NCBI RefSeq assembly: GCF_003704095.1
Contig: NW_020847149.1
Location: 186,001 to 250,000, forward strand
Length of the DNA: 64,000 bases
DNA from: Pocillopora damicornis
Taxonomy: Eukaryota
Direction of reading: 5' to 3'
This document shows, in pieces, positions 10,355-14,450 of this stretch (the stretch's first letter is position 1; the number at the start of each line of letters is the position of its first letter). The position numbers were made by a program, and so were the translations under genes. A model generated the notes under the pieces. The model saw only the letters and a list, made by a program, of their open reading frames with translations. It did no database searches and had not been told where the DNA came from.

Positions 10355-10739
10355 AATTTGTATAGGTAATCATATGATTTCGAGTGCAATTTGGAGTAAA
10401 TAAGCACGAGTAAATTTTTTCAAAGAATAACAAAATTGCATGCGCCCGTAGGGCGAGTGCTAAAATTTACAAGTGCTAATTTATTCCAAATTGCACGAGA
10501 AAAATCATGTGATTACATATTAATAATGTACATGAAAAAATACGAGGTAGCTTATCATAATTATGCAGAAGAAAAGCGCGCGCATCGCGTGTAAAAATAA
10601 TTTATTCAAACCCTGCAAGTGACATTGTGCGTTCGGTCATAAACAATCGCTTACGATCAAAACAATAAGATAAAATGAAATTTTCACACCTTTAAGGTGC
10701 AAAAATTTTAAAGTCCGGCCAAACAGTTCAAGGAATTGT

Positions 10740-12038
10740 TCAGTCTGTGTCCGAATCACTTTCGATGAAATGAAATCGTCGTTTGCGAGGTTTATCAGGC
10801 GAGGCCTTGTTGTTGAGGTTGAATGTGACATTGCAGTTAGTGAAGGAATTTATCAGATTCTGCGCTTGAGAGCTCATCATGTGTGGAATTACTGCATTTG
10901 AAGCACAAGGACCAGATGAACTACTCGCCACCGGCACGGGTTTTGGTGTACTATTTCCCTTTGAAATGGCCCACGAAAGCTGTCGCTGTTCGTCTTCAAG
11001 ACGGCGTTCGCTTCATCGTAGTCATCTAAAGACTGGATATTTCTGTGACCGGTGACTTTTGCAATAGACGACCTCTCGAGATTTGCTTTCTTCATCTTGC
11101 TAACGAGCGTTTTGCGGGCATTGTGGTTGGTAAACCGCTTCTCGGATGACTGAAGGGAGGTTTGGGAGATAATATTTTTCATCATGGAGTTGATTTTATT
11201 TTCTCCCATGGACTGGACTTTGTACCAAGTTTCATCGCTAGGTCCGCTGTTGTATTTTATCGAGAGGTAAAATGGACCACTCGCCCTGAGATTGCGAGGC
11301 CTACGGTTGATGTAATGACGGAATAACGCAACTGGACATCTCTCTCCGCCGGTCTGAAACATTTTGGGCTGAAACTGTCTTGGCTTTGCGTTCAAACCTC
11401 CAGGTCTGGTTTTCGTTGGCCCTTCAGCAAACTCAACAAACTCACGGCCGTCATCACCTTTCATGATTCTGAAATCCTCCAGTCTCCGTTCCATGGTGTT
11501 CTTGCCTTCCACGGAGACCAAATTGTTGAGTACGTAGCCACCACATTGTATGAATTAAGGACTCTGGGGTTTTACCACCGAGTTTCTCGCTCTTCCAGAG
11601 AATTTCTTCTTCCTCTTCGGATAGTTGTCGAGCTTTGTTTGGGCGCTTGCCGCGACCAGCTAAGCGAAGCTGTTTCGCTTTTCCGTCCAGTACTTGTTTG
11701 GAGGAACTGAATTCTCTGTCACGAATAATGGACAGTTTATAGCCTTTGTTCTTCAAGTATCTATCAAGCGGTGTAATCATTACTTTCAGACTTTCCGGTT
11801 CATAATCTTCCCCATGTTTGTTTGTAATTTCGGCGTAGAATCGCTCGAGCAAACTGTTAAACTGGGTCGGCTCGTAGTTTTCGATTTTCGCGGCAATTTC
11901 CTTCTCCAAACACCACTTCTTCCAAACTGACAACTAAAAAGCAGTGCTTTTTACCGTGTTTTCATTGATAGAGCTGTTTTTCAGCTGCTGTATTGTTGTT
12001 GCGGTAGCGGAAGAAAACCTTCTTAAAACACCCGCCAT
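10740..12038 (-). pseudogene. Tyrosine recombinase (DUF3504 / ZMYM-KCTD1-QRICH1-related, CryptonA-like), ~430 aa, disrupted
   Basis: ATG at 12038; in-frame TAG at 11934-36; frameshift near 11488; ~8-bp insertion near 11000. Joins track ORFs 11454-11933, 10889-11521 and 10740-10937. Motifs GLRGRQEH, KTRPGG, TNHNAR, TGHR and SLDDY give the R-K-H-R-H-Y catalytic set. Confidence 0.85.
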
Positions 12039-12160
12039 TGTTTCGCTCGCAAATTTTCAGCGTATCCAAATGTTGCGACATCCAAGGCTCGCATTTGATT
12101 GGCTATCTGTGAGTTTCTTTGATTATTGACCAATCAGAATGTATGGTTTGTTTCTTTCTT

Positions 12161-12214
12161 TGCATTGAATTAACCCTCTTTGCACTGAATTAACTCTCTT
12201 CTGCACTGAATTAC
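12161..12214. repeat. Three ~20-bp tandem repeats (tgcactgaattaac...) in the Crypton 5' subterminal region
   Basis: tgcattgaattaaccctctt / tgcactgaattaactctcttc / tgcactgaattac. Confidence 0.8.
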
Positions 12215-14450
12215 TTAAAAACTGCATTTATCTTAACCAATCAGAACTGAGTAATTTTTTCATGTATATTATTAGGTTTTATAACATTGCGCGTGCGCAA
12301 AGCCTACCTATTTCCGAAGGAGCTACTATGGCAAAAATACTTATGTACTGCATAGCCGTGCATCCATCACATGACGGGTGCAATTTCACCGTCAAATTAC
12401 ACCCGTCCCTTTCAGCCGCGAGGTTTCAAAACTTTCAAGATATTTCCCTGCTCTATCCCGATTGAGATAAACCTTTTGGAGCTCAAAATGAAAATAATAC
12501 GTGCTAAATTACACTAGTTTCGAAAAACAACGAGCATGTTGTTCTTTCAAGCGAAAAAATTAGTTTTGGAGTTGACGATACTTCATTCCAAAAGGGGATG
12601 TTAATTTTGGTTTAAAACAAAACTAAGCTTTCCGACTTGAACTGAGGCTTTGCGACATTAGGTAATCTTCACTAAACGGTAAATATTATTTTGATGTGTC
12701 GATATGTCCTAGAAATGTTGTTCAATGTTTCGAAATCGTACGATTTCCAGAATTTTCAACACAAAGCTACGCTTCTAGTAAACAATAATTCAAGTAAGGT
12801 AATTCTTCCACACTGGTCTCGTAAATACTAGAAATTTGCAAGTTTTTCGCTTCGTTTTTCGAACACTTAATATTATTTTTAAGTGTTGATATTTCCTAAA
12901 AGTACACGTTCAATAATCGTATAATTTCGGAATTTTAAAAGTCTTCAATACCGGCCGTTAATTCTAGTAAACAACGATTCAAGCATGCTGAATCTACTGC
13001 GTGGTCTTGTACATGCAAGAAACTCGTTCGTTTTTCGCCACTGAGCAGAAAATTTACCACTCTTTTAACAAAGATCCGGTCACAAAATATTTCTTGGTCG
13101 TTGTTGCCTGATTCAACGGTTAAAAAATAACACTCGCAGATATTTTGCGGGTTGCAAAGTATTTTTCCGCCTCGTAAGGGTGAGGAAAAATACTGATAAT
13201 GAGTAAAATGTTTATACAACGGATTTATGATCCACCATATCATCCTCCATTTTGGCGTCTTGTGTTCGAAATACATTCTACGGTCTATCTTAGCATAAAT
13301 AAATCGATCGAATATGACCTACGTGAAAGACGATACCAACGCAAGCGGAAAAATTAAGGTTTTTTTTTTAAATGACTGGTAAATAAAGAAAGATTTGCGG
13401 GTTCATTTTTTTTGTAACATCTTAGCCATTATGCTTACTTCTTTAAAATTTCTCGTGCCTCCGACTCGACACAGGCCCCTTCAGCAAGTAAGTGCGCATG
13501 CAAAACCTACACAGATCATTTTTTTACCACTCTAATCCTCGTTTTTAAGGACTGATTTCCAGCTGACATAGTCTTCAAGATTATAATGACACCTACTAAT
13601 TATCAAGTGTTGTTGATTTTTTTCCACAATTTCTTGTTGATCCCTTGGACAATGCGTTGAATTTGAAACGAGAATCCTGTTGTTCGTCCACTCGGCAGCT
13701 CTATGCGCATTGCGAACTGAAGAAGGCAAATTATACAAGTGTTTCTAATCAATTCTTGCTGGCACTTCTAATTTTTAAAAACGTGAGAACTTTTTTCCTG
13801 AGTAGCAGAATTTGATATCCTTCTTTAGTAAAACCAATTCGAAGCGAGTCTATATGCGAGTCGTGATTCGTCATTAAGGAAAGAGATTTCAATCCTTTTT
13901 CACCTCTGGGATTTTTTTAATTATGAATCACTGTGCTTTGTCCTAGGCTCATTCAAACAATTTCTTTTTTTTATTTAAACGTAATCATAGAAGCAATTTT
14001 AAACTCCCAGTCATTAGTCACATACTTGTCAGGTAAAGCTGTTTTTGCTCAATTTCCGTTTCCAGGCAAAATGAAAGTCACCTCATAAAGATAGGAAAGA
14101 GCTTAAACTCATCAGATCAACTGCAAAGTTTGTTTTCTCACAATTGACTGACAGATGTAACGACATATATTGCCGCATTTGGATCATCTCCAATTGACAC
14201 CTCAATACCCACAGCTGCCGTCAACATTTTTCTTCTAAATCTACTTTGAAATCGATGCAAATACTCCCTACTTTTCAGTATCATTGTTGTTTCTGTTCAC
14301 CGGACAAGTGTTGCTGGAGAAGCTGTTGAATTTCTTGTTCGACTTTTTCATGCTTGGACCTCAGATAAAAAGGGATTTCTTGTTTCTTTGGACATAAAGT
14401 TGAAACTAGCTCGTATCCGGGCAAGGACCCAAAGACATCAAAGCTCGAGT

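What the first reader, a model, noticed from the sequence alone, without database searches (positions are those of the whole stretch)
10356..12274. Tyrosine-recombinase transposon with an internal complement of its own joined ends (A...ORF...A'B'...B), showing co-variation between copies
Seen: in gene orientation the element begins with A (12274-12255, taataatatacatgaaaaaa). Downstream of the ORF lie A' (10540-10521, 19/20 match) and, 4 nt later, B' (10516-10502), the complement of the subterminal B (10380-10366, 14/15). B'...B is a ~150-bp hairpin. In the derivative at 54828-55395 both matches are perfect (20/20 and 15/15), and A and A' share a change absent from copy 1 (catgG/Ccatg versus catgA/Tcatg). 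Known: Cryptons encode a tyrosine recombinase and are usually described with only short terminal direct repeats. An internal region complementary to both ends is the DIRS1 ICR, and subterminal IR plus 3' stem-loop is the Helentron/HINE layout. Inference: A'B' approximates the reverse complement of a B-A circle junction (spacer 4 nt versus about 10 nt). It could be a second recombination site, or a template or priming site for a single-stranded circular intermediate in an element with no reverse transcriptase. I cannot confirm that this is undescribed.
Basis: partly seen in the sequence, partly recalled or inferred. Interest (0 to 1): 0.75.

Follow-up and report, generated by a model that had tools for sequence, protein, structure and literature searches.

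The report
Coral Crypton with self-folding recombination site
This dead coral jumping gene and its sister families carry an internal mirror copy of their own joined ends, which likely lets one circular DNA strand fold into the site that their Cre-like enzyme cuts and rejoins, a way of moving known from bacterial integrons and not found described for animal transposons.

Summary
Confirmed and general. Window 12274-10360 (minus strand) is a decayed CryptonA transposon with one DUF3504 tyrosine recombinase (YR) gene. A, A', B' and B lie where stated. One correction: the joined ends hold only 2 nt more than the internal copy, not about 6. The layout recurs, with different arm sequences, in five more families of this genome and in 18 of 40 testable metagenome loci (1 of 40 in the wrong orientation). 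The arms are symmetric about 7 nt in the joined ends, 5 nt in the internal copy and 6 nt in insertion sites. There is no target duplication. The element's own centre stays at its 3' end in 92 of 93 copies, which points to exchange of one strand only. The 7-nt and 5-nt centres pair better on the antisense strand in 13 of 15 families. Best reading (0.65): an antisense single-stranded circle folds on the internal copy into an attC/CTXphi-like site; no intermediate was seen. Fixed mismatches exclude a DIRS-like copying template. I found no description in print (nine searches; Repbase not visible). This scan noted the same design in other genomes earlier.

The parts
10360..12274 (-). CryptonA transposon, near full length (1915 bp), decayed
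   Evidence: Ends from aligned genomic copies; loose ends at 12274/12275 and 10356/10357 in four public runs
12255..12274 (-). Arm A, the 5' end of the element; the crossover lies immediately before it
10740..12038 (-). Broken DUF3504 tyrosine recombinase ORF; the R, K, H-x-x-R, H and Y motifs are still readable
10521..10540 (-). A', internal complement of A (19/20)
10516..10520 (-). 5-nt centre of the internal complementary region
10502..10515 (-). B', internal complement of B and outer 5' arm of the hairpin
10367..10515 (-). Imperfect terminal hairpin B'...B, about 150 nt
10367..10380 (-). Arm B, an imperfect inverted repeat of A about a 7-nt centre once the ends are joined
10360..10366 (-). 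7-nt centre carried at the 3' end of the element
10357..10359 (-). Target-derived trinucleotide, start of the right half of the insertion site; not a duplication
   Evidence: Varies between copies; empty sites of sister families
12275..12284 (-). Target-derived 6-nt centre and left half-site
   Evidence: Pooled flank symmetry; weak in this single copy
54828..55391 (+). Internally deleted non-autonomous copy: A 54828-54847, A' 55222-55241, 5-nt centre 55242-55246, B' 55247-55260, B 55371-55384, 7-nt centre 55385-55391

Best explanation
This is a decayed CryptonA transposon whose internal A'B' segment is complementary to its joined ends, and it likely moves as a single-stranded circle of the antisense strand that folds on A'B' into a double-stranded recombination site. 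Shown from sequence: ends, layout, co-variation across families, 7/5/6-nt geometry, no target duplication, and the element's centre always at the 3' end. Inferred step 1: the recombinase cuts only the antisense strand at both ends, at the right border of each site's centre, and joins B-centre-A; replication then frees that strand as a circle. Inferred step 2: the junction pairs with A'B' of the same strand, helped by the hairpin, giving arms B and A around a 7-nt/5-nt centre with a 2-nt bulge that mimics the 6-bp centre of the target. Inferred step 3: one strand exchange inserts the circle into a symmetric AT-rich target and replication resolves the intermediate. The short partner strand would block the second exchange, which would break the chromosome.
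For: (1) Family-specific pairing: over 13 family rows, A matches its own A' at 12.2/13 on average against 7.6 across families, and B matches its own B' at 10.8/12 against 6.8. (2) A constant 2-nt excess in six families of this genome plus F046 and in most metagenome elements. (3) Arm symmetry peaks at 7 nt in the junction (39 matches against 12-22 at other offsets) and at 5 nt in the internal copy. Target symmetry peaks at 6 nt: 168 of 279 against 97.7 +/- 7.3, with 0 of 300 shuffles reaching it. (4) The element's centre is at the 3' end in 92 of 93 two-ended copies, and a look-alike lies in the 5' flank in 2 of 93; a double exchange through a mismatched centre should give both outcomes. (5) Empty paralogous sites align without gap or duplication in 12 clear cases. 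(6) The centres pair better on the antisense strand in 13 of 15 families, fully (5 of 5, through G.T pairs) in 11; 80 of 102 junction models fold lower on that strand. This is the strand that standard YR cutting geometry (my knowledge) assigns to a crossover at the right border. (7) The fold is Cre-like and the catalytic set is invariant in 40 of 40 homologues. (8) Precedents: folded attP of CTXphi (PMC4246890) and attC (PMC4792948).
Against: No circle, single strand or enzyme activity was observed. The strand of cutting rests on assumed Cre-like geometry. Family F057 folds no better on the antisense strand (4 of 19) and F034's centre pairs better on the sense strand. Families share ancestry, so 13 of 15 are not independent events. 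Whether target bases next to the crossover follow the internal copy or the junction is mixed. One-strand exchange also occurs with double-stranded partners (VGJphi). The closest solved recombinase is Cre; integron integrase ranks 38th. No informative empty site was found for this very family, only for sister families. Most YR loci of the genome show no layout (4 of 30 strict hits; none convincing in 12 more). Many of them are fragments or lie beside gaps, but a class without the layout is not excluded.
Confidence: 0.65

Rival explanations
1. The element moves as a double-stranded circle with one strand exchange (VGJphi-like). A'B' is an accessory protein-binding site, or with the hairpin a signal for second-strand synthesis.
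For: Explains the one-sided centre and the lack of duplication. A double-stranded circle is the standing Crypton model (PMC13565253). Shared binding specificity alone could make A and A' co-vary.
Against: Does not predict a centre exactly 2 nt shorter that pairs with the junction centre on one strand only. Pairing of A and A' runs up to about 26 nt (F057), longer than an 11-13 bp YR arm. The 7-nt junction centre does not match the 6-nt target.
Confidence: 0.2
2. The element is a DIRS-like retroelement that borrows a reverse transcriptase. The antisense cDNA uses A'B' to rebuild and join its ends.
For: Same layout as the DIRS-1 ICR, which is essential for retrotransposition; DIRS-1 cDNA is single-stranded and antisense (PMC7192593), the strand that folds best here.
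Against: The DIRS-1 ICR is an exact complement. Here A and A' differ at fixed positions, for example F032 positions 10 and 14 in 21 of 21 A copies against 21 and 20 of 23 A' copies, and likewise in F034, F037 and F057, so the ends are not copied from A'B'. The 7-nt centre is absent from the internal copy. No RT domain in the element.
Confidence: 0.07
3. A'B' is a second double-stranded site that recombines with the circle junction and flips the segment between them, as Flp does in the 2-micron plasmid.
For: The two sites lie in inverted orientation and share both arms.
Against: The centres differ in length and sequence. Neither of the 2 pattern hits was a flipped copy: one was a head-to-tail dimer, the other had both hairpin arms made alike. 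Arm orientation was constant in the copies listed.
Confidence: 0.05
4. The repeats have no function. They are left by template switching in palindromic DNA and kept alike by conversion.
For: Arm conversion inside the hairpin does occur (L092; L256 and L279).
Against: Conversion would erase, not preserve, the fixed mismatches and the 2-nt difference seen in families whose recombinases are as little as 25% identical to the window's.
Confidence: 0.03

Closest known systems
CryptonA transposons (Kojima and Jurka 2011, PMC3212892; passages and supplement 1 read)
   Same: Single DUF3504 YR gene, about 2 kb, many internally deleted non-autonomous copies, no terminal inverted repeats at the two ends, no target duplication.
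   Different: The paper found no terminal repeats in animal Cryptons (all CryptonA rows 'n.d.') and cites a circular model. Here the ends pair with an internal complement and a terminal hairpin, and the geometry points to one-strand exchange.
CTXphi attP(+) and integron attC sites (PMC4246890, PMC4792948; passages read)
   Same: Works like them, by inference: a folded single strand gives a YR site, one strand pair is exchanged, unpaired bases set the strand, replication resolves.
   Different: Eukaryotic; the element encodes its own Cre-like enzyme; the folded site exists only after the ends are joined; targets are loose symmetric AT-rich sites, not dif or attI.
DIRS-1 internal complementary region (PMC7192593; passages read)
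   Same: An internal segment near the 3' end is complementary to both termini, in a YR element; the intermediate is an antisense single strand.
   Different: No RT, RNase H, gag or long inverted repeats. The complement is about 40 nt, imperfect and 2 nt short, so not a template; the DIRS-1 ICR is 88 bp and exact.
SE elements of Vibrio (PMC9345347; abstract and Discussion read)
   Same: YR-driven circularisation of one specific strand, with an ordered placement of a 6-bp segment.
   Different: SEs have four core genes and carry 6 bp from attL; no internal complement is mentioned in what I read. Here the centre is the element's own.
Helentron/HINE (recalled; PMC8969392 passage on asymmetric repeats seen)
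   Same: Asymmetric inverted repeat plus 3' hairpin, no target duplication.
   Different: No HUH Rep/helicase gene; the arms have YR-site symmetry.

Membership tests
CryptonA | Sole gene is a DUF3504 tyrosine recombinase | tested here: met
   PF12012 over cut-off in both ORF pieces; Cre-like fold of a homologue
CryptonA | R-(K)-H-R-(H)-Y catalytic residues | tested here: met
   Invariant in 40 of 40 homologues; motifs readable in the window copy
CryptonA | No terminal inverted repeats at the two ends, no target site duplication | tested here: met
   Ends; empty sites of sister families
CryptonA | Phylogenetic placement with named Repbase CryptonA elements | not testable with these tools
   No Repbase or Dfam sequences available; homologues are named KIAA1958-like in corals and a hydrozoan
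CryptonF/CryptonS type ends | 4-6 bp terminal direct repeat shared with the target | tested here: not met
   Only a loose trinucleotide likeness and at most about 1 nt of shared sequence at the crossover
DIRS1-like retrotransposon | RT/RNase H and gag genes | tested here: not met
   One ORF, DUF3504 only, in 1.9 kb
DIRS1-like retrotransposon | Long inverted terminal repeats | tested here: not met
   None between the two ends
DIRS1-like retrotransposon | ICR exactly complementary to the joined ends | tested here: not met
   Complementary but with fixed mismatches and a 2-nt shorter centre
Folded single-strand YR substrates (attC, CTXphi attP) | Two arms formed by intrastrand pairing, with strand-specific unpaired bases | tested here: met
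   Predicted folding only; two of the six own-genome families do not lean antisense
Folded single-strand YR substrates (attC, CTXphi attP) | Single strand exchange resolved by replication | tested here: inconclusive
   Product pattern fits (92 of 93) but is indirect
Folded single-strand YR substrates (attC, CTXphi attP) | Enzyme binds and recombines the folded strand but not the duplex | not testable with these tools
   Needs biochemistry
Helentron/HINE | HUH Rep/helicase in the autonomous partner | tested here: not met
   The full-length partner encodes DUF3504

The most novel reading that the evidence does not exclude
Animal CryptonA elements are eukaryotic single-strand transposons that integrate through a self-folded, attC-like site made from the circle junction and an internal complement. 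Very abundant hairpin repeats of coral genomes are their non-autonomous copies, and the DIRS ICR may be the same device inherited from such an element.
Probability: 0.55. Interest if true: 0.88.

Novelty: new variant of a known kind. Interest (0 to 1): 0.76.

Why it matters
A 2026 review states that Crypton transposition has not been shown experimentally and that the model assumes a double-stranded circle (PMC13565253). The founding paper found no terminal repeats in animal Cryptons. The layout gives a rule for finding CryptonA ends and non-autonomous copies. It also yields a precise substrate for a first in vitro assay: antisense strand, 7/5-nt centre, 6-bp symmetric target. If right, recombination of folded single strands, so far a bacterial and phage specialty, also moves animal transposons. 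It would offer a second reason why the DIRS ICR is essential, and a small homology-independent, break-free integrase worth testing as a tool.

Tried and rejected
1. Solo hairpin with its own duplication: rejected; 28 of 30 hairpin-only hits have A' adjoining and 20 of 30 have the 5' end within 1.5 kb.
2. Flipped copies: none among 2 exact-pattern hits; only one of the two possible flipped products was searched.
3. Three-base terminal direct repeat or target duplication: rejected by empty sites. Twenty of 93 rebuilt sites had spanning hits. I count 12 as clear (L097, L100, L101, L108, L159, L161, L162, L165, L170, L191, L206, L208); the other 8 were self-hits, microsatellites or weak.
4. Whether target bases at -1 to -3 follow the internal copy or the junction: mixed, not used.
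5. The target motif 7 nt after B in metagenome elements (15 of 16) is a weak control, because offsets 3 and 6 also score (14 of 17, 10 of 16). An earlier automatic register was off and was redone.
6. Rfam: two miRNA hits far below gathering score.
7. Viral contigs: no relative. Prokaryote genomes: one partial match in a MAG, not studied.
8. Public runs are contigs only; no end-to-end joint was among the rows shown, with 147 rows hidden, so circles are neither shown nor excluded. RNA cover of the ORF is low and not proof of expression. Empty alleles and junctions of the young family F032 in other individuals remain untested.
9. The structure gave no special likeness to integron integrase.
10. 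Two reviews were not held. Repbase and Dfam entries could not be seen; a description there is possible. Supplements other than file 1 of PMC3212892 were not read.

Full report
Observation. All four repeats lie at the stated coordinates with the stated scores, and the derivative at 54828 has perfect matches. The ORF runs from an ATG at 12038 to a stop near 10740, is broken by stops and frameshifts, and matches DUF3504 in both long pieces. The host is a stony coral by inference: homologues are named from Acropora and Oculina and runs are labelled coral metagenome.

Ends. A search of the genome with the 3' end gave 983 candidates, 40 scored and 30 fetched. Most are internally deleted copies of 0.4-1.0 kb with sharp common ends. 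Four public runs show unrelated flanks at the same two places. The three bases after the 3' centre vary. Empty paralogous sites of sister families align across the insertion point without gap or duplication in 12 clear cases among 20 with spanning hits, of 93 tested; none was informative for this family itself. So the element ends at 10360, and the junction spacer is 6 nt against 4 in the internal copy. Two head-to-tail dimers show this directly; L091 lies in a gappy scaffold.

Co-variation. In this family A and A' share G or A at position 15 in 22 of 23 copies, which is one subfamily split; position 7 changed in A alone in 6 of 23. The stronger test is across families. A strict de novo search hit 4 of 30 YR loci, with 1 in the wrong orientation; a relaxed search added L032 and L046; 12 further loci gave nothing convincing. 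Multi-copy searches then defined five more families, and F046 in part, whose ends I placed with anchors outside the paired arms. In metagenome contigs, 80 loci were fetched and 40 dropped for short flanks. Of the 40 left, 18 showed the layout, in five sequence clusters and with one locus counted twice, against 1 of 40 in the wrong orientation. Background frames gave 2 of 152. Eight misses with hairpins were re-read, and most show the internal copy with a decayed end. Over 13 family rows, own-family identity is 12.2/13 for A and 10.8/12 for B, against 7.6 and 6.8 across families.

Geometry. Of 144 copies in six families, 93 had both ends in register and no N. Once the ends are joined, B and A are inverted repeats about 7 nt (39 matches against 12-22 at other offsets; best offset in five of six families). 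In the internal copy the centre is 5 nt. Insertion sites are symmetric about 6 nt: 168 of 279 against 97.7 +/- 7.3 in shuffles, and 159 of 267 without microsatellite sites; the peak is clear in F032, F034 and F057, shallow in this family and absent in the two smallest. The crossover lies at the right border of the centre. The element's centre is at the 3' end in 92 of 93 copies and a look-alike is in the 5' flank in 2 of 93. By standard YR chemistry (my knowledge) the right border is where the bottom, here antisense, strand is cut, so the products look like one-strand exchange.

Strand. The 7-nt and 5-nt centres pair better on the antisense strand in 13 of 15 families, and fully around a 2-nt bulge in 11; the sense strand is better in 1. 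Whole junction models fold lower on the antisense strand in 80 of 102 copies, with F057 the exception at 4 of 19. The families are related, so these are not independent counts.

What it is not. Fixed differences between A and A' inside families exclude copying of the ends from the internal segment. The hairpin does not occur alone. No flipped copy was found.

Protein. R173, K206, H303, R306, H329 and Y338 of P0002 are invariant in 40 of 40 homologues. The model (mean pLDDT 77.6) matches QRICH1, then Cre (E 1e-7); Tn1549 integrase and integron integrase rank lower.

Mechanism. Shown: anatomy, co-variation, geometry, product pattern. Inferred: one-strand excision, release of an antisense circle, folding on A'B' into a site whose 7/5 centre mimics the 6-bp target, one-strand integration and replicative resolution. 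I put this at 0.65, a double-stranded circle with an accessory site at 0.2, borrowed reverse transcription at 0.07, inversion at 0.05 and no function at 0.03.

Literature. PMC3212892 (passages; supplement 1 whole): no terminal repeats found in animal Cryptons. [quoted passage not shown] PMC13565253 (passages): mechanism not demonstrated, double-stranded circle assumed. PMC5753468, PMC8969392 and PMC4157794 (passages): no such structure in what I saw. PMC7192593 (passages), PMC4246890 (passages), PMC4792948 (passages) and PMC9345347 (abstract and Discussion) give the precedents. Nine searches were run; seven of them named Crypton, and none returned a title or abstract describing this layout. 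Two reviews were not held and Repbase and Dfam were not visible, so absence from print is not proven. Tn916 coupling sequences, Cre cutting positions, Flp inversion, the Helentron/HINE names and CCAAT boxes are recalled, not from calls.

Earlier notes of this scan report the same design and a similar reading in other genomes. I had reached my reading before seeing them, and they are not independent support.

Verdict. A real, conserved and probably functional end design of a known transposon group, with a testable single-strand mechanism. New variant of a known kind; interest 0.76.

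Noticed in passing
window 10117-10356 (+): A separate repeat with a 190-nt hairpin abuts the element's 3' end tail to tail. The same repeat family abuts the 5' end of another copy (L023). It may be the 3' part of another Crypton-like element or a preferred target; no matching 5' arm was found upstream.
   Followed up: partly
window 17094-17355, 28030-28216, 58845-59000: A palindromic repeat family with long hairpins; sister Crypton families have inserted into copies of it elsewhere (L162, L165, L219).
   Followed up: partly
window 57963-61466: A large fold-back: nested inverted arms of over 1 kb each, 83-97% complementary, around a spacer of about 1.4 kb.
   Followed up: no
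window 952-1989, 7714-8760, 14250-15398, 51651-52796 (+): Four long single-ORF rhodopsin-family GPCR genes; the first three are tandem paralogues about 6.7 kb apart, and the element sits between the second and third.
   Followed up: no
window 44024-45853 (-); 26555-27031 (+); 47562-48785 (-): A 609-aa ORF with a polycystin/ion channel domain; a CAP-domain exon in a repeated gene block; a 407-aa ORF with no Pfam match.
   Followed up: no
L092:1340-1660 (reverse); L256; L279: Copies in which one hairpin arm has been overwritten by the other, in both directions, which suggests the hairpin forms in vivo.
   Followed up: partly
window 12240-12090 (-): Several CCAAT-box-like words (recalled motif) just inside the 5' end, also seen in family F032; a likely internal promoter, which would leave arm A outside the transcript.
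   Followed up: no
window 11812/10794: One deletion joint is shared by many non-autonomous copies, by the copy at 54828 and by contigs of three DNA runs.
   Followed up: partly
L049, L066, L317: More distant DUF3504 loci with downstream hairpins that did not fit the automatic register; possibly further end variants.
   Followed up: no
L352:2501-3030: A bacterial MAG contig holds a 72% match to the recombinase; likely host DNA in the bin.
   Followed up: no
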